Source of the DNA: a virus
Taxonomy: Duplodnaviria; Heunggongvirae; Uroviricota; Caudoviricetes
Direction: 5' to 3' (one strand)
IMG/VR virus record: IMGVR_UViG_2693429656_000025
DNA length: 5,403 nt
Position numbers and translations under genes: made by a program. Shown here one piece after another: positions 1-5,403 of the stretch. Under the pieces are notes generated by a model. That model saw only the letters and a program-made list of their open reading frames with translations. It was not told the origin of the DNA and ran no database searches. Each line of letters begins with the position of its first letter. Positions within the stretch are counted from its first letter, which is position 1.

Positions 1-474
1 ATGTACAGTCCGGTACAAATAGCCAATAAATTCATAACGTTGGGAAACCAACATCATAATCCTCTGACCCACATGCAACTGCAGAAGCTTACTTATATTG
101 CCCATGGTTACTATTTAGCATTAACAGGTAAGCCTTTGCTCAATGAATGTGTCTCCGCGTGGAAGTACGGTCCAGTTATTCCTGGAATGTACGATGCTTT
201 CAAAGACTATGGGAATAAACCTGTTACGAATGTAGCAGTAGCTCCTTTTGGTGGCATCGTTACTATGGATCCGCAAGCAGAGAGCATTATCGGGGCTGTT
301 TATAAGTTTTACGGCTCGAAAAATGGAATTGAGTTATCAACTCTAACTCATATGCCAGGTACGCCTTGGTCACAAGCTTATAATGGTATTGGCTCGTCAA
401 TCATCTCAAATGATGCGATCAAGGCTTATTATCATGATTTATTGAATAACCGACAGCAATGTCAGGGCCTCTGA
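1..474 (+). CDS. Panacea-domain (DUF4065 / COG3600 GepA-like) protein; candidate PanA-type antitoxin
   Basis: 157-aa ORF beginning at window position 1 with ATG (true start could lie upstream of the window). The translation carries the pattern I associate with DUF4065/Panacea: 'MQLQKLTYIAHGYYLALTGKPLLNECVSAWKYGPVIPGMYDAFKDYG'. Stop TGA at 472-474, 22 nt before the next gene. Family assignment is by motif recall, not a search. Confidence 0.75.
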   Translation: MYSPVQIANKFITLGNQHHNPLTHMQLQKLTYIAHGYYLALTGKPLLNECVSAWKYGPVIPGMYDAFKDYGNKPVTNVAVAPFGGIVTMDPQAESIIGAVYKFYGSKNGIELSTLTHMPGTPWSQAYNGIGSSIISNDAIKAYYHDLLNNRQQCQGL

Positions 475-496: not shown

Positions 497-1045
497 ATGT
501 CTCACAATTCAGATATCTATAAACTTATCGGAGCGGCCGCAGGTGTTGAAAATGGTCGCTCTGAAGCATCCTTAAACTCTACTGACAGTCAAGAACAGGT
601 TTTTAAATCTGCATTTGAGCCGTCTAATCATGAGAGCGACGATGATTCTTCTTCAGAAAATAAAGCTATTCTGGAGGCAGAAGAGTTTGGTTCTAATACT
701 GGTGCATTGCATGAGTTTATGCAGCAGAACAGAATGGACAGTCTTCAAGCTCAGCTTGATATGCTCAAATCACAAGTACGGGATAAGATAGCTGACGCAA
801 CTGGTAAAGAAATAGACAATGAGCTTCGGACAAAAATGGCCTCATTCACGGTTTGGTTTATGTCGTGTTGGTGCTTATTCGTTGTCGCAATGTTTACATC
901 GTTTCTTATTGCACATGAAGGAAAGCCTCCAGTTGAAGCGATCGTTGCATTACTAGGTACAAGTACAATTAGTATTGTTGGTTTGGTTGGTTTCGTTGTT
1001 AGTGGATTGTTCAAATCAAGAAAAGATAGTGATAAAGAAAAATAA
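497..1045 (+). CDS. Small membrane protein: acidic Ser/Asp-rich N-terminus, predicted coiled coil, two C-terminal transmembrane helices; candidate toxin/effector partner of the upstream Panacea protein
   Basis: 182-aa ORF with ATG at 497 and RBS AGGGA upstream. Low-complexity acidic stretch 'SNHESDDDSSSENKAILEAEEF', heptad-like segment 'LQAQLDMLKSQVRDKIADATGKEIDNELRTKMAS', then two hydrophobic spans 'FTVWFMSCWCLFVVAMFTSFLIAH' and 'IVALLGTSTISIVGLVGFVVSGLF' separated by 'EGKPPVEA', and a basic tail 'KSRKDSDKEK'. Stop TAA at 1043-1045. No family recognised. Confidence 0.6.
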   Translation: MSHNSDIYKLIGAAAGVENGRSEASLNSTDSQEQVFKSAFEPSNHESDDDSSSENKAILEAEEFGSNTGALHEFMQQNRMDSLQAQLDMLKSQVRDKIADATGKEIDNELRTKMASFTVWFMSCWCLFVVAMFTSFLIAHEGKPPVEAIVALLGTSTISIVGLVGFVVSGLFKSRKDSDKEK

Positions 1046-1387: not shown

Positions 1388-1959
1388 TCATAATTCTGTG
1401 CTGGTGGCAGGAATTAATTTCTGCCAGATAGCGGAAACATATTTTGCCTGATGACGGGCATCAGCCAGGGCGTTGTGCCGTTCGCCATCGAAAGGCATGT
1501 CCATTTTGGGGTCGAATCCGATGGAACGCCCAAGCGTAACGATCGTGCGTACATCGTGGTCATTCCAGTACGCCCACGGGCAGATTTGTCCTGCTCGCTC
1601 GTAAGCTCCACGTAAAATTACGTTGTCGAAGGTGGCCCCGTTACCCCAGACTTTTAAATATTTTATATTGTCTGTATGCTGATTAATGAAATGACTCAAT
1701 TCAGAGAGTGCATCGCTGATCGATAAAGTATCATCAATACAGATTGCAGTTCGTGCTTCAGGGCTCTGTTTCAACCACCACAGGAGGTATCGCCGTCAGG
1801 TGTAGCTCCTTGCTTCATAGCACTGTCTAGGCTGACAACCGCATAGAATTCTTGTCCGATGTCACCGGTTTCTGGGGTAAAGAACACCGCGCCAATGGAA
1901 ACGATCGGTGCATCCTTATTTTTCCCCATCGTCTCAAGGTCGATCATTAAGTTGTTCAT
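1388..1959 (-). pseudogene. DnaQ-like 3'-5' exonuclease (DEDD fold) interrupted by a frameshift; two ORF fragments
   Basis: N-terminal fragment (1771..1959, ATG at 1957-1959) carries an Exo I-like motif 'MIDLETMG' and ends '...PDGDTSCGG*'. C-terminal fragment (1388..1774) carries Exo II/III-like motifs 'WGNGATFDNVIL' and 'HNALADARHQAKY'. The two frames overlap only between about 1773 and 1798. Shifting frame there gives a continuous '...PDGDT..LWWLKQSPEAR...'. This is a single-base indel or a sequencing error. RBS AGAGGTGA lies upstream of the ATG at 1959. Confidence 0.7.
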
Positions 1960-2768
1960 CACTTCACCTCTTGTGATGGTTTTGCTGCAAAATACTCGAT
2001 ACCTTTATCCCAGATAGATTTTATGGTCGACCACGTGACTGGCACTTTAATTTCAATACGTCCGCTCCCGTCACAGGTATCGCAATCATCATCGCCAAAG
2101 CATTCCAGGCAGCTTATAAACGTAGTTTCTGAAAATTCACCGGATAGCACCCCCTTAACGCCGTTCTCGGCTGTTAGTCTCTTCGGCACCATAACCCAAC
2201 CATCCGGAGTTACCGGAGAGTTGCCAGACAGTGCGTTCTGCAATCGTTCCAGCTTAACGTATTCCTGAACCCTGTTTCCGTCGCACGCCTGAAGCCATTG
2301 CACAGCCTTTTGCGCATCAGTGTGAAAGGTACAAGTGCGACCGTCATCAAATTGCATTTCGTAGAGGTCAGCAACCTGTTTAAACTGCGTTTGTGGCAAC
2401 TTGTAAGCCTGGCTTGCAGGTACGGCACCATAGAGCATGGCAGCTCGGCAGGCGTTCCAGCCTTCATCAAAACCGACTATGCCATTATTTAAAGATGGAC
2501 GAGCATCTGGCACCACCGGCACTGGCTTGGCTATATATAGCGGCTGAACATACCAGCCCTTCGATAACCAACTGTCAGCAATGTTTTTACTCCTCGTTAT
2601 TGCCGGAATACCTAAGCCATTGTCTGAATGCAGCCATGCCACCGGATCCGCTTCCAGCGATGCCAATGCAATTTCATAAGCCCGGCGCTCAATATTGTCT
2701 CGCACATCTAGGCTGCTTATGCGCTCTTTGATTTCTTTAATCAGTTCTTTGTCGGTAAAAGTGGTCAT
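1959..2768 (-). CDS. Prophage hypothetical protein, possibly ead/Ea22-like, with C-terminal CxxC-x5-CxxC zinc-knuckle-like motif
   Basis: 269-aa ORF with ATG at 2768 overlapping the upstream stop (ATGA). Its stop TGA overlaps the exonuclease ATG (TGATG at 1957-1961). Contains 'CLECFGDDDCDTCDGSGR' near the C-terminus. The Ea22-like assignment is tentative recall of '...PVAW...QPLY...' segments. Confidence 0.55.
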   Translation of the reverse strand: MTTFTDKELIKEIKERISSLDVRDNIERRAYEIALASLEADPVAWLHSDNGLGIPAITRSKNIADSWLSKGWYVQPLYIAKPVPVVPDARPSLNNGIVGFDEGWNACRAAMLYGAVPASQAYKLPQTQFKQVADLYEMQFDDGRTCTFHTDAQKAVQWLQACDGNRVQEYVKLERLQNALSGNSPVTPDGWVMVPKRLTAENGVKGVLSGEFSETTFISCLECFGDDDCDTCDGSGRIEIKVPVTWSTIKSIWDKGIEYFAAKPSQEVK

Positions 2769-3241
2769 AATTGGTCATTCTCCGCTTTGGCTGTGCGTTC
2801 GGCTTTTTCGCGTTTATGGCTCTCATAAAACCATCGGTGAAGCTCCGTTAACTCTTTATCAATAGGCTCATATTCACGGTCAAAATATGCCTGAGCATTT
2901 TTTTCATCTTCGCTAGGTAATTCGCCTGGTCCAAACAAAGTGTTATAAATCCACATCAGTGCATTTTCTGCATTACCCGTTTCTCTCCATTCAATAATTG
3001 CAGCCTGCATAACCAGAATGTTTTTGCCAAAGAACAGATCGAGTTCTTTAAATCGCTTCCGAATATATTCGTTCTCGTCTTCAAGAGCTGCGAGGCGTTT
3101 GTCTTTGCCTTGCATTTCGTCCAGCATCGCTTTTGCGGAAATATAAAGTTCCTGCTTTTTACGATCAGCAGGATCGCTGTAATGGTCCTGCATGTACTGA
3201 AATTCTTCATGCAGTGCCTGATAGTTAATTTCGGTTGTCAT
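2765..3241 (-). CDS. Prophage hypothetical protein (158 aa), charged and probably alpha-helical
   Basis: ORF with ATG at 3241 overlapping the stop of the upstream PP-loop gene (ATGA at 3238-3241). Its stop overlaps the next start (ATGA at 2765-2768). No family recognised. Codon usage is continuous with its neighbours. Confidence 0.55.
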   Translation of the reverse strand: MTTEINYQALHEEFQYMQDHYSDPADRKKQELYISAKAMLDEMQGKDKRLAALEDENEYIRKRFKELDLFFGKNILVMQAAIIEWRETGNAENALMWIYNTLFGPGELPSEDEKNAQAYFDREYEPIDKELTELHRWFYESHKREKAERTAKAENDQL

Positions 3242-4116
3242 GCCACTATCTCTTCGAATTTCAACTCCAATTGATCACCCCAGATTTCACATGATTCAGG
3301 ACACGAACCAGTATCAAATCGCCTGGCCTGCACCATTGCCTGATACAAATTTCTGTAGTCGCTGTCTGCATACATTCTGGCAATCCCGTCAAGCGTCAGG
3401 TGACCACGGTACATAACGTCTTTACCTGTCCCGCGATGACCATCTCTGACGTGTTTACCCGTAACCAGTTCATTAAAAACTCGCATCAGACCAGGTTCGT
3501 CTTTACATGCAAGCCCTAGCTTTTGCGTTGACTTTTTGATGCAAAAAACACAGTTCCCTAGGTGCTCTGGGATTTGCAAATCAAAAGGTTGTTTACGCCA
3601 CCACCGGATAACATCCGACTTATCAAAATCAGACAGCTCGGCGAGATACCTGACGCCCGATTTCGGTTTCAGTCTGCGGGGTTCGTCTGCACGAATACCC
3701 AGCCATGTGATGTAATTCCCTCTCCCGAAATGGTCATCGCAGTATTTGGTGAAGGGGACGAGTTTTAATCTGTCAGTGCAGAACGCGCCGCCGATGTATG
3801 GCGTGCCATATTTTTTAACCATATCCATAAACGGCTTGAGCACCGGCATTCGTGTTTGAATATCCTTTGGTTCCCATACCGTATAACCATTTGGCTGCCC
3901 AAGCTCTGGATTTATATCGACCTGCAACACAGTTAGCGGTATGCCCCAGAACTTCACAACCTCCCGAATAAAGCGGTATGTCAGCGGATGTTCGCAACCG
4001 GTATCCATAAAGATGTAGCAGACGTTATTGCCAGCCTTTCTTTGTTCTTCCATCAGGTGAACAAGATATGCAGATGTTCTCCCGCCAGAAAAACTAACTA
4101 CATGAGTTATGCACAT
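3238..4116 (-). CDS. Phosphoadenosine phosphosulfate (PAPS) reductase family protein / PP-loop ATP pyrophosphatase
   Basis: 292-aa ORF. N-terminal 'HVVSFSGGRTSAYL' matches the PP-loop SGGxxS signature of the PAPS reductase / DndC-like superfamily. The ATG at 4114-4116 overlaps the 3' end of the upstream HD gene by 10 nt. Confidence 0.8.
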   Translation of the reverse strand: MCITHVVSFSGGRTSAYLVHLMEEQRKAGNNVCYIFMDTGCEHPLTYRFIREVVKFWGIPLTVLQVDINPELGQPNGYTVWEPKDIQTRMPVLKPFMDMVKKYGTPYIGGAFCTDRLKLVPFTKYCDDHFGRGNYITWLGIRADEPRRLKPKSGVRYLAELSDFDKSDVIRWWRKQPFDLQIPEHLGNCVFCIKKSTQKLGLACKDEPGLMRVFNELVTGKHVRDGHRGTGKDVMYRGHLTLDGIARMYADSDYRNLYQAMVQARRFDTGSCPESCEIWGDQLELKFEEIVA

Positions 4117-4643
4117 TTGCGTAATTCCGATAACTCGTTGAAGCGTTCTATAAACATCCCGTAGGCATGGCCCGGTGCCAGTGGAATCACGTTGAACATC
4201 TCTGTTGCCGGGATGCCTTCCAGTACAGGCCAGAAAGAGCCATCATCAAGCCCGAGATCGCGGCGTTCGGTTGCCAGCATGATGAGATCGGCATATTTCA
4301 CTGGCGTGCTCATAACAGGAGGTAACCCGTATTTCTCACGGATTACGGCATCTATTTTTTCTTCCATCCGTTTATAGTCAGGAAGAAGGCGTTTCAGTGG
4401 AGCGGGAATATCCTGGCAATACGCTTCTGTTGCATCATGCATTAACGCTTCAAAAGCAAATTCCTGCGGCACCAGCTGGCTGCAAAGCACCGCATGTTGG
4501 GCGACACTGTAGAAGTGAGAAAGATGACCTGCAAAGCGGCAGATATTTGAAAGGGAAACCGCGATATCGTTAATCACGATGTCGTCTTTATTTATCCTGT
4601 CATAATAAAAATGCTTCCCGGAAAAAGTTTTAATAAATGACAT
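4107..4643 (-). CDS. yfdR: HD-domain phosphohydrolase (YfbR/YfdR-like 5'-deoxynucleotidase family)
   Basis: The ORF track starts at GTG 4670, but the ATG at 4641-4643 has RBS GGAGA 7 nt upstream and gives 'MSFIKTFSGKHFYY...', 178 aa, the size I recall for CPS-53 YfdR. HD signature: 'VAQHAV' (His) and 'MHDATEAY' (HD...E). Stop TAA at 4107-4109. Confidence 0.8.
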   Translation of the reverse strand: MSFIKTFSGKHFYYDRINKDDIVINDIAVSLSNICRFAGHLSHFYSVAQHAVLCSQLVPQEFAFEALMHDATEAYCQDIPAPLKRLLPDYKRMEEKIDAVIREKYGLPPVMSTPVKYADLIMLATERRDLGLDDGSFWPVLEGIPATEMFNVIPLAPGHAYGMFIERFNELSELRKCA

Positions 4644-4653: not shown

Positions 4654-4736
4654 ACGTATATGCGCTGCACCGCGCTGAGTTTGGGTAAAAGGAAGCCCTC
4701 ACCATCCGGTGATTATTGAGTTAATTACGTTTCCAT

Positions 4737-4758
4737 AAATGCCCCCGCAGGGGCATTT
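4737..4758 (-). terminator. Perfect hairpin, putative intrinsic terminator or attenuator downstream of the yfdQ-like gene
   Basis: AAATGCCCC-CGCA-GGGGCATTT: 9-bp GC-rich stem with a 4-nt loop, 13 nt downstream of the TGA at 4771-4773 of the minus-strand gene. On the minus strand the stem is followed by ATTTAT, a weak U-tract. Confidence 0.45.
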
Positions 4759-4770
4759 GCAGTAATGAAA

Positions 4771-5403
4771 TCAGGCGGTGAAAGTACCAATAAAGGTTTC
4801 TACTTTGCTGTCTTTGAATTTCTCAACAAGCAGATCACGAAATTCGTTAGCCATATCTTCCTGCACCGCTTCCAGCTGAATAATGCGCAGAACCAGTACA
4901 GGACGATCGCCAGTGATAATGCTGAGGCGTAATTTAAACGGACGTTCTTTCAGACCTTCAAACGGAACGCATTTAAATTCAAATGCCACTGGCATAATGT
5001 CTTTGGTCTTCGCTTCGACAGATTCCATCAGGGAGCGTTTGCCGCTGAAGTCATTATCTTCAAAATCAGCGGTCTGGTTTGCTTCAATCGTGATTTTACG
5101 GACTGCCGCAGCCGCTTTTGTTGCCTGAATAGCGTCACCATTAGCATCAAAGCCCACAAGGTAGTCGGCCCAGTCTTCAATCCATTCTGCCAGTGACTTC
5201 TGGGAGTTACGCTCGCCGTTAACAGACAACAGGGCAGAGAACGGTGCTGTCTTTTTCAGTTTGAGAGTGGCGGTGTTATCTGCGTGACCTGGTTCATCAA
5301 TAGTACCCAGGTTAAGTACACTGACGGCACGCATATTATCAGCATCGATAAAGCAGCGGGTGCCTTCATCTGCAAGATCTTTAGAATAACGGGTAAAGTC
5401 ATC
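4771..5403 (-). CDS. yfdQ: Prophage protein, 3' portion only (reading frame open to the window edge); YfdQ-like (DUF2303) by context
   Basis: The reading frame stays open from 5403 down to the TGA at 4771-4773; the track's Met at 5334 is internal, with in-frame upstream sequence '...[23 protein letters not shown]'. It lies immediately upstream of the YfdR-like gene, as yfdQ does in CPS-53. The DUF2303 assignment is contextual, not motif-based. Confidence 0.6.

What the first reader, a model, noticed from the sequence alone, without database searches (positions are those of the whole stretch)
3238..4643. HD phosphohydrolase and PAPS-reductase-like PP-loop enzyme coupled in the prophage early operon
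Seen in sequence: an HD...HD..E phosphohydrolase (YfdR-like) overlaps by 10 nt a protein with an SGGxxS PP-loop of the PAPS reductase/DndC-like family. Established knowledge: YfbR/YfdR-type HD proteins hydrolyse dNMPs, and PP-loop enzymes adenylate substrates, as in DNA phosphorothioation and deazaguanine pathways. Inference: the pair may act together on nucleotides, as a DNA/nucleotide modification or counter-defence function. In K-12 CPS-53 the gene after yfdR, as I recall, is much shorter, so this PP-loop enzyme may be a variable cargo position.
Basis: partly seen in the sequence, partly recalled or inferred. Interest (0 to 1): 0.6.

Follow-up and report, generated by a model that had tools for sequence, protein, structure and literature searches.

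The report
yfdR next to a NinC-family gene
Two already-known prophage accessory genes, the HD hydrolase yfdR and a homologue of phage lambda's orphan gene ninC, sit side by side through ordinary phage gene shuffling, and nothing indicates they work as a pair.

Summary
On the minus strand, 4107-4643 encodes YfdR, 98% identical to E. coli K-12 YfdR. It overlaps by 10 nt with 3238-4116, a 292-aa protein with an intact SGGRTS PP-loop that passes Pfam PAPS_reduct.

The functional coupling is not supported. The PP-loop protein belongs to the lambda NinC family: about 80% identical to lambda NinC and 93% to Stx-phage NinC. Among 160 NinC-homologue loci, YfdR lies directly upstream only in 10 near-identical E. 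coli prophage alleles. It was found in none of 80 loci from the one-genome-per-species collection. NinC usually sits in the nin region, next to NinB, NinG, replication genes or a Dam methylase.

Among 80 near-identical yfdR copies, the downstream gene always starts at the same ATG inside yfdR's last codons. That gene is YfdS-like in 71 loci and NinC-like in 8.

NinC resembles SspD, BrxP and DndC more than a true PAPS reductase. It is 56% identical to the PAPS domain of a Vibrio phage protein implicated in evading Dnd defence. YfdR separately binds DnaA. Both genes are already annotated in hundreds of genomes, so interest is low.

The parts
4107..4643 (-). yfdR: HD-domain phosphohydrolase, 178 aa (weak 5'-deoxynucleotidase; DnaA-binding protein in K-12)
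   Evidence: 98% identical to K-12 YfdR. PHROG 318 E=2e-109. PDB 2gz4 HD protein E=4e-14. H49, H68-D69, E72 and D119 are present in the sequence. The DnaA-binding data are in PMC4776307.
3238..4116 (-). ninC-family gene: stand-alone PP-loop ATP-pyrophosphatase-like protein, 292 aa, annotated 'PAPS reductase family'
4107..4116 (-). 10-nt overlap: the start codon of the downstream gene lies inside the last codons of yfdR (AAATGYGCATRA). This is the mosaic joint.
   Evidence: Window versus K-12 sequence. All 80 yfdR copies use the same ATG whether YfdS-like or NinC-like follows.
4771..5403 (-). yfdQ (DUF2303), cut by the window end; upstream gene of the same operon
   Evidence: Pfam PF10065 E=1.6e-61, matching profile positions 84-269. 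Full-length 274-aa copies occur in related loci.
2765..3241 (-). Ea22-like gene, 158 aa, immediately downstream; overlaps ninC by 4 nt
   Evidence: PHROG 18739 and 250. Relatives are annotated ead/Ea22-like.

Best explanation
The locus holds two independent, already-known accessory genes of the early-left operon of a CPS-53/KplE1-like lambdoid prophage. Modular phage recombination placed them next to each other. (1) yfdR encodes an HD-domain phosphohydrolase. In K-12 it is a weak dNMP phosphatase and binds DnaA domain I, damping chromosomal replication initiation when overproduced. (2) The next gene is a relocated member of the lambda NinC family. This is a stand-alone PP-loop ATP pyrophosphatase whose nearest defence-system relatives are the DNA-phosphorothioation enzymes SspD, BrxP and DndC. 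It is not a sulfate-assimilation PAPS reductase. I infer that it adenylates a substrate with ATP and uses its conserved cysteines, probably as an Fe-S site, for sulfur chemistry on nucleic acid. I also infer that its biological role is counter-defence against phosphorothioate-based immunity (Dnd/Ssp type), most likely by working with or interfering with host partner proteins, because no partner NTPase or DNA-binding subunit is encoded beside it. The 10-nt overlap gives translational coupling, but it is a fixed property of yfdR's 3' end that serves whichever gene is recombined in behind it. Shown here: gene identities, the intact motifs, the lack of co-conservation and the constant joint. Inferred: the Fe-S site, the sulfur chemistry and the anti-Dnd/Ssp role in E. 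coli.
For: Identities: YfdR is 98% identical to K-12 YfdR. The NinC-like protein is about 80% identical to lambda NinC and 93% to Stx-phage NinC.

Not a conserved pair: in complete E. coli genomes, yfdR occurs in 2948, this NinC allele group in 423, and the adjacent pair in 282. YfdR is directly upstream in 10 of 80 viral NinC loci, all >=94%-identical alleles, and in 0 of 80 loci from the species collection. An iterated profile search gave the same result. Stx phage PA2 has a YfdQ-like gene, then an unrelated 147-aa protein, then NinC. In the closest relative, EC17CM13, yfdR is truncated while NinC is intact.

Usual NinC context is the nin region: a NinB homologue in the locus in 37/160 (mostly directly upstream), NinG in 33/160, Rep O, DUF968, and a Dam methylase fused (6) or nearby (17).

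Constant joint: all 80 yfdR copies use the same overlapping ATG; YfdS-like follows in 71 and NinC-like in 8.

Biology: the protein is 56% identical over 96% of its length to Vibrio phage 44E38.1 p0018 (P0086). Transfer of p0018 together with p0019 let a phage infect a Dnd-carrying host (preprint 10.1101/2021.05.05.442762; cited as anti-Dnd in PMC13551039). YfdR binding to DnaA is reported in PMC4776307.
Against: The anti-Dnd evidence comes from a two-gene swap in a Vibrio phage where the PAPS domain is fused to a Dam methylase. The PAPS domain was not tested alone. Other Vibrio phages carrying a PAPS-reductase gene infected hosts with and without Dnd equally well (PMC10945359). PT synthesis is reported to need a PAPS-domain protein plus a P-loop NTPase (PMC12914056), and none is next to NinC here. 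Lambda NinC is dispensable in K-12, which is not known to carry Dnd or Ssp (the K-12 point rests on my own knowledge). No Fe-S site has been shown. The two genes are probably co-transcribed and translationally coupled, so a local functional interaction in this clade cannot be excluded by comparative data alone.
Confidence: 0.6

Rival explanations
1. One reading: YfdR and the PP-loop enzyme form a two-enzyme module acting on the same nucleotide or DNA substrate. For example, the HD hydrolase would supply or remove dNMPs for a modification made by the adenylating enzyme.
For: The genes overlap by 10 nt and have no promoter-like site between them, so they are likely co-expressed. The pair is present in 282 complete E. 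coli genomes. Both enzymes bind nucleotides.
Against: The pair is not co-conserved beyond one clade of near-identical alleles: 10/80 viral loci and 0/80 loci from the species collection. About 90% of sampled yfdR copies carry a different gene at the same joint. NinC relatives in lambda, Stx phages and phage-plasmids have other neighbours. yfdR is truncated in the closest relative while NinC stays intact. YfdR has a separately documented DnaA-binding role.
Confidence: 0.06
2. Auxiliary metabolic gene: the protein is a true PAPS/APS reductase (CysH-like) that boosts host sulfate assimilation during infection.
For: It passes the Pfam PAPS_reduct threshold. It is annotated this way in RefSeq and PHROGs. 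The closest solved structures are CysH and APS reductase. The AMG interpretation is common in the literature.
Against: Similarity to CysH covers only about 70 N-terminal residues. NCBIfam CysH PRK02090 scores 20.3 bits against a cutoff of 154. Fold-search TM-score normalised to the query is about 0.38. The PP-loop is the ATP-type SGGxxS, whereas CysH aligns SSSFGIQA at that position. The C-terminal ECGLH catalytic motif is absent from the sequence, and the family has its own conserved CxxC and CxxxC instead. Its genomic context is early or nin-region phage genes, and it is sometimes fused to a Dam methylase.
Confidence: 0.05
3. RNA-directed enzyme: NinC is a TtcA/TtuA/NcsA-like Fe-S-dependent thiolase or TilS-like modifier of tRNA. 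It would alter host or phage tRNA, for instance to escape anticodon nucleases or tune translation.
Against: Sequence profiles place it nearer SspD, BrxP and DndC than any tRNA enzyme. Recurrent fusion or adjacency to a DNA adenine methylase points to DNA. The one genetic result for a homologue concerns a DNA-PT defence.
Confidence: 0.15
4. Autonomous DNA phosphorothioate writer: NinC alone, with host IscS as sulfur donor, phosphorothioates phage DNA to mimic 'self' or resist nucleases.
For: Homology to SspD, DndC and BrxP. The anti-Dnd phenotype of the homologous Vibrio phage module.
Against: PT synthesis is reported to require a partner P-loop NTPase and a DNA-recognition subunit, and none is encoded nearby. 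No Tris-dependent degradation of lambda DNA, which carries ninC, is known to me (own knowledge, not tested here).
Confidence: 0.08

Closest known systems
Bacteriophage lambda NinC (orf-290, nin region) and its Stx-phage homologues
   Same: About 80% (lambda) and 93% (Stx phages) amino-acid identity over the full length. Same size, about 290 aa. Same PP-loop and Cys motifs. Dispensable, function unassigned.
   Different: Genome position. Lambda's copy lies between ninB and ninD in the early-right nin region. This copy lies in the early-left operon directly behind yfdR.
E. coli K-12 CPS-53/KplE1 yfdQ-yfdR-yfdS-yfdT cluster
   Same: yfdQ and yfdR are orthologous, YfdR at 98% identity. The operon order is the same, ending in an exonuclease gene (only a short remnant, ypdJ, in K-12) and a TorI/PrtN-type excisionase. 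The overlapping start codon after yfdR is the same.
   Different: K-12 has YfdS (120 aa, DUF551-type, unrelated) at the slot occupied here by the NinC-like gene. The related complete prophages sit next to a dusA fragment rather than at argW.
Vibrio phage 44E38.1 p0018 (PAPS domain fused to Dam), part of a module that overcomes Dnd defence
   Same: 56% identity over 96% of the window protein (P0086). Same invariant residues.
   Different: The Vibrio protein carries a C-terminal Dam methylase domain (479 aa) and was tested together with a second gene. The window protein is stand-alone. Related prophages carry a separate Dam-type methylase about 6.5 kb away.
SspD / DndC / BrxP, the PAPS-reductase-domain enzymes of DNA phosphorothioation systems
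   Same: PP-loop ATP pyrophosphatase core. They are the best-scoring defence-system profiles: SspD E=2.7e-15, BrxP and DndC weaker.
   Different: Only remote, partial similarity. There are no partner genes such as sspABC, dndDE or brxCZL. It is much shorter than the DndC and BrxP profiles (468-481 and 779 positions).
CysH / APS reductase (sulfate assimilation)
   Different: ATP-type SGGxxS loop, no ECGLH motif, a different C-terminal half, and far below the NCBIfam cutoff.

Membership tests
YfdR (HD-domain 5'-deoxynucleotidase, CPS-53 type) | Orthology-level identity to E. coli K-12 YfdR | tested here: met
   175/178 identical, E=1e-137.
YfdR (HD-domain 5'-deoxynucleotidase, CPS-53 type) | HD metal-binding residues H...HD...D | tested here: met
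   H49, H68-D69 (with E72) and D119 are present in the translation. The three differences from K-12 (K16R, M165I, D169E) lie elsewhere.
YfdR (HD-domain 5'-deoxynucleotidase, CPS-53 type) | Pfam HD-family model above the gathering score | tested here: inconclusive
   PF12917 24.3 vs 25.9 bits. PF13023 17 vs 22.5 bits. PF01966 not reported. PDB HD protein 2gz4 E=4e-14.
YfdR (HD-domain 5'-deoxynucleotidase, CPS-53 type) | dNMP phosphatase activity and DnaA binding | not testable with these tools
   Literature only, for the K-12 protein (PMC4776307).
Lambda NinC family | Full-length homology to lambda NinC | tested here: met
   79.7% identity over residues 2-287 to the lambda imm434 record. 90% nucleotide identity to genes annotated NinC in Stx phages.
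PP-loop ATP pyrophosphatase superfamily | SGGxxS/T PP-loop motif at the first strand-helix turn | tested here: met
   SFSGGRTS, residues 8-15, invariant in 62 homologues. The model places it between strand 4-8 and helix 13-27.
Pfam PAPS_reduct (PF01507) | Score above the gathering threshold | tested here: met
   37.3 bits vs 22.5, but only residues 5-72 align.
CysH-type PAPS/APS reductase (sulfate assimilation) | Equivalog-level match and C-terminal ECGLH catalytic cysteine motif | tested here: not met
   NCBIfam PRK02090 20.3 bits vs cutoff 154. There is no ECG(L/I)H in the sequence. The PP-loop position in CysH is SSSFGIQA.
SspD (Ssp phosphorothioation) | Full-length match to the SspD profile | tested here: inconclusive
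   PADLOC SspD 54.8 bits, E=2.7e-15, covering profile positions 2-125 of 277. This is remote homology, not membership.
SspD / DndC / BrxP modification modules | Adjacent partner genes: P-loop NTPase (SspC/DndD/BrxC) and a DNA-binding subunit | tested here: not met
   No such genes are in the window or among recurrent neighbours of 80 viral homologue loci. The requirement is stated in PMC12914056.
DndC | Significant match to DndC profiles | tested here: not met
   14.9 and 13.7 bits, E=2.5e-3 and 5.6e-3, with no stretch passing on its own.
Anti-Dnd PAPS-Dam protein of Vibrio phage 44E38.1 | Homologous PAPS domain | tested here: met
   56% identity over 96% of the query (P0086).
Anti-Dnd PAPS-Dam protein of Vibrio phage 44E38.1 | C-terminal Dam methylase fusion | tested here: not met
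   The window protein ends at residue 292 without a Dam domain. A Dam fusion occurs in only 6 of 160 homologue loci.
Conserved two-gene module (HD + PP-loop) | Adjacency conserved across divergent homologues | tested here: not met
   Adjacent in 10/80 viral loci, all >=94%-identical alleles, and in 0/80 loci from the species collection. Only 8 of 80 yfdR copies are followed by NinC.

The most novel reading that the evidence does not exclude
The NinC family, including lambda's orphan ninC, would be a stand-alone phage version of the SspD/DndC sulfur-inserting enzyme. It would plug into or jam the host's phosphorothioation machinery so that phage DNA escapes Dnd, Ssp or BREX type 4 restriction. 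E. coli prophages would then move this counter-defence gene between the nin region and the early-left operon, here onto the translational-coupling joint of yfdR so that it is made as early as possible.
Probability: 0.3. Interest if true: 0.55.

Novelty: already known. Interest (0 to 1): 0.2.

Why it matters
As proposed, as a coupled HD/PP-loop nucleotide-modification module, it does not hold up. Both genes are routinely annotated, and the adjacent pair is present in 282 complete E. coli genomes. Two points are still useful. First, the 'PAPS reductase' label on this widespread phage family is probably misleading. The family was found in 590 isolated phage records and has about 1,600 representatives at the 50% identity level. 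The sequence says ATP-type PP-loop enzyme related to DNA-phosphorothioation proteins, which argues against counting it as a sulfur-metabolism auxiliary gene. Second, lambda NinC is about 80% identical to the window protein, which is itself 56% identical to a Vibrio phage protein implicated in Dnd evasion. That makes lambda a convenient model for testing the family's function.

Tried and rejected
(1) I tested whether K-12 YfdS is a truncated remnant of the PP-loop gene. BLASTP found no similarity, so this was rejected.

(2) I tested whether the Stx-phage and phage-plasmid genes upstream of NinC are diverged YfdR. They show no similarity and have no Pfam domain.

(3) I ran an iterated profile search (jackhmmer) for more distant YfdR- or YfdQ-like proteins near NinC homologues. 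It found no loci beyond those found by phmmer.

(4) I followed the citation 'a phage PAPS reductase evades Dnd'. The JSS1_004 paper concerns a T7-type kinase, not a PAPS reductase. The correct source is Piel et al.; only the preprint could be read.

(5) Literature searches for NinC with phosphorothioate, and for PptA with PAPS reductase, gave nothing relevant. The weak PDB hit 21fy 'PptA' (E=0.61) was not pursued.

(6) The afdb50 fold library was unavailable. The BFVD search added only other phage 'PAPS reductases'.

Full report
**What is there**

The window carries a run of minus-strand genes, listed here in the direction of transcription:
- yfdQ (DUF2303), cut by the window end, 4771-5403.
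- A 178-aa HD protein, 4107-4643.
- A 292-aa PP-loop protein, 3238-4116.
- An Ea22-like gene, 2765-3241.
- A 269-aa protein, 1959-2768.
- An Rv2179c-type 3'-5' exonuclease split in two, 1771-1962 and 1388-1774.
- A PrtN/TorI-type excisionase, 1079-1378.

These assignments come from Pfam and PHROGs. The plus strand at the left end carries a Panacea-domain gene and a gene for a 182-aa protein. The HD and PP-loop genes share bases 4107-4116: CGC AAA TGT GCA TAA in the yfdR frame, with ATG TGC ATA A.. in the downstream frame. The HD motif is H49...H68-D69..E72...D119, so there is only one HD dipeptide.

**Identity of the two genes**

The HD protein is YfdR, 175/178 identical to the E. coli K-12 CPS-53 protein.

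The PP-loop protein passes Pfam PAPS_reduct, but only over its first 70 residues or so. It matches PHROG 424 at E=6e-92. At the DNA level it is 90% identical to genes annotated NinC in Stx phages. At the protein level it is 93% identical to those and about 80% identical to lambda NinC. It is therefore a NinC-family gene.

RefSeq annotates the same arrangement in other E. coli chromosomes as 'yfdR: 5'-deoxynucleotidase' followed by 'phosphoadenosine phosphosulfate reductase family protein'. It sits inside a lambdoid prophage lying next to a dusA fragment. The genes read away from a CI-like repressor, which is the layout of an early-left operon.

**Are the two genes a functional pair?**

- In 5,426 complete E. 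coli genomes, yfdR is present in 2,948, this NinC allele group in 423, and the two adjacent in 282.
- In 80 IMG/VR loci encoding NinC homologues from 100% down to 35% identity, YfdR lies directly upstream only in the ten loci whose NinC is >=94% identical to the window's. Two further loci have a YfdR-like ORF elsewhere, on the other strand.
- In 80 loci from the one-genome-per-species collection, none has a YfdR homologue within 5 kb.
- An iterated profile search did not change this.
- Stx phage PA2 has a YfdQ homologue (55% identical), then an unrelated 147-aa protein, then NinC.
- A phage-plasmid has yet other neighbours.
- In the closest E. coli relative of the window's NinC (99.7% DNA identity), yfdR is truncated while NinC is intact.
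- The recurrent neighbours of NinC homologues are nin-region and replication genes. A NinB homologue is in 37 of 160 loci, mostly directly upstream, and NinG is in 33 of 160. Rep O, DUF968, RecT and YqaJ also recur. A Dam-type methylase is fused in 6 loci and lies within about 2.5 kb in 17.

**The overlap**

Among 80 near-identical yfdR copies, the downstream gene always starts at the same ATG embedded in yfdR's last codons. It is YfdS-like in 71 loci and NinC-like in 8. K-12 shows the same joint with the unrelated YfdS. The overlap is therefore a fixed feature of yfdR's 3' end and marks a recombination joint with exchangeable cargo.

**What the PP-loop protein probably does**

Sixty-two homologues share these invariant residues:
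- S10 G11 G12 R13 S15, the ATP-type PP-loop.
- D38 T39 G40.
- Cysteines 113, 126, 189 and 192 (a CxxC pair) and 276. C272 is nearly invariant.

It is not a CysH-type reductase, for four reasons:
- The NCBIfam equivalog scores 20 bits against a cutoff of 154.
- CysH aligns SSSFGIQA where this protein has SFSGGRTS.
- There is no ECGLH motif.
- The C-terminal half is specific to this family.

Among defence-system profiles the best match is SspD (E=2.7e-15), then BrxP and DndC. More distant members of the family show the same preference without being SspD themselves.

The family is large. It has 1,644 representatives at the 50% cluster level with E<=1e-3 and occurs in 590 isolated phage records, many from Vibrio. 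One hit, P0086, is 56% identical over 96% of the query and is named as the 'Dam methyltransferase with PAPS reductase domain' of Vibrio phage 44E38.1. In the Piel et al. preprint, moving this gene (p0018) and its neighbour p0019 into a related phage allowed infection of a Dnd-carrying host. A 2026 paper cites the published version of this work as evidence that a phage PAPS reductase promotes Dnd evasion.

Against over-reading this evidence:
- The PAPS domain was not tested alone.
- Other PAPS-carrying Vibrio phages showed no Dnd-related difference.
- PT synthesis is said to need a partner NTPase, and none is encoded here.
- Lambda ninC is dispensable in K-12.

My best reading is an ATP-dependent, Cys/Fe-S-assisted nucleic-acid sulfur enzyme used as counter-defence against PT-based immunity, probably through host partner proteins. 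The enzyme class is supported by sequence. The biological role is inferred.

**What YfdR does**

For the K-12 protein, the literature reports much lower nucleotide affinities than YfbR. It also reports direct binding to DnaA domain I, dependent on Phe46. Increased copy number of yfdQ and yfdR together with yfdS or yfdT inhibits replication initiation (PMC4776307). None of this involves a NinC-like partner, since K-12 has none.

**Verdict**

The functional coupling is not supported. Both genes and their adjacency are already annotated in public genomes, so this is ordinary phage mosaicism. The one point of residual interest is that lambda's long-orphan NinC family looks like a phosphorothioation-related counter-defence enzyme rather than a metabolic PAPS reductase, and that is readily testable in lambda.

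Noticed in passing
window 1388-1962 (-), deletion near 1785/1786: The Rv2179c-like 3'-5' exonuclease gene is split into 63-aa and 128-aa ORFs. The cause is loss of a single A (GATACC[A]TCCTG) relative to two E. coli prophages with an intact 573-bp gene. It is a pseudogene or a sequencing error. The identical split is present in IMG/VR contig L006.
   Followed up: yes
window 1-474 (+) and 497-1045 (+); hairpin 1040-1067: A Panacea/SocA-domain protein is followed by a gene for a 182-aa protein with a hydrophobic C-terminal region, and then by a bidirectional terminator-like hairpin. This looks like a PanA-type antitoxin with a membrane toxin, placed as prophage-end cargo next to the attachment site.
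   Followed up: no
window 2765-3241 (-): The Ea22-like 158-aa protein matches the PADLOC model named 'DpdH' at E=2e-41 (residues 47-147 against a 127-position profile). Either that model captures a common prophage domain, or the name is misleading.
   Followed up: no
window 1959-2768 (-): The 269-aa protein has an N-terminus shared with DUF551/YfdS-type prophage proteins. Its C-terminal segment CLECFGDDDCDTCDGSGR resembles a DnaJ-type CxxCxGxG zinc finger. No Pfam family was assigned.
   Followed up: no
window 4725-4755 (-), between yfdQ stop and yfdR start: A perfect GC-rich hairpin (AAATGCCCC-TGCG-GGGGCATTT) sits in the 127-nt gap between the two genes. It has no T-tract, and the terminator scan did not call it. 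It may be an RNA-processing or stability element, or a site affected by antitermination.
   Followed up: no
L165-L175 and other short genome-contig loci (e.g. Pseudomonas sp. 30_B, Oceanobacillus profundus, Kitasatospora papulosa): NinC hits at an identical 80% identity occur in unrelated bacterial assemblies, on low-coverage contigs of about 48.4 kb or on tiny contigs. They look like phage lambda control-DNA contamination of those assemblies.
   Followed up: no
L003 5507-6328 (Stx phage PA2); L209 1680-2498 (Acinetobacter higginsii): A YfdQ/DUF2303 homologue lies upstream of NinC homologues in Stx phages and in one Acinetobacter prophage. Ten of 160 loci show this, so the link is loose, but unlike the yfdR link it extends beyond the near-identical E. 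coli alleles (>=94% identical NinC).
   Followed up: partly
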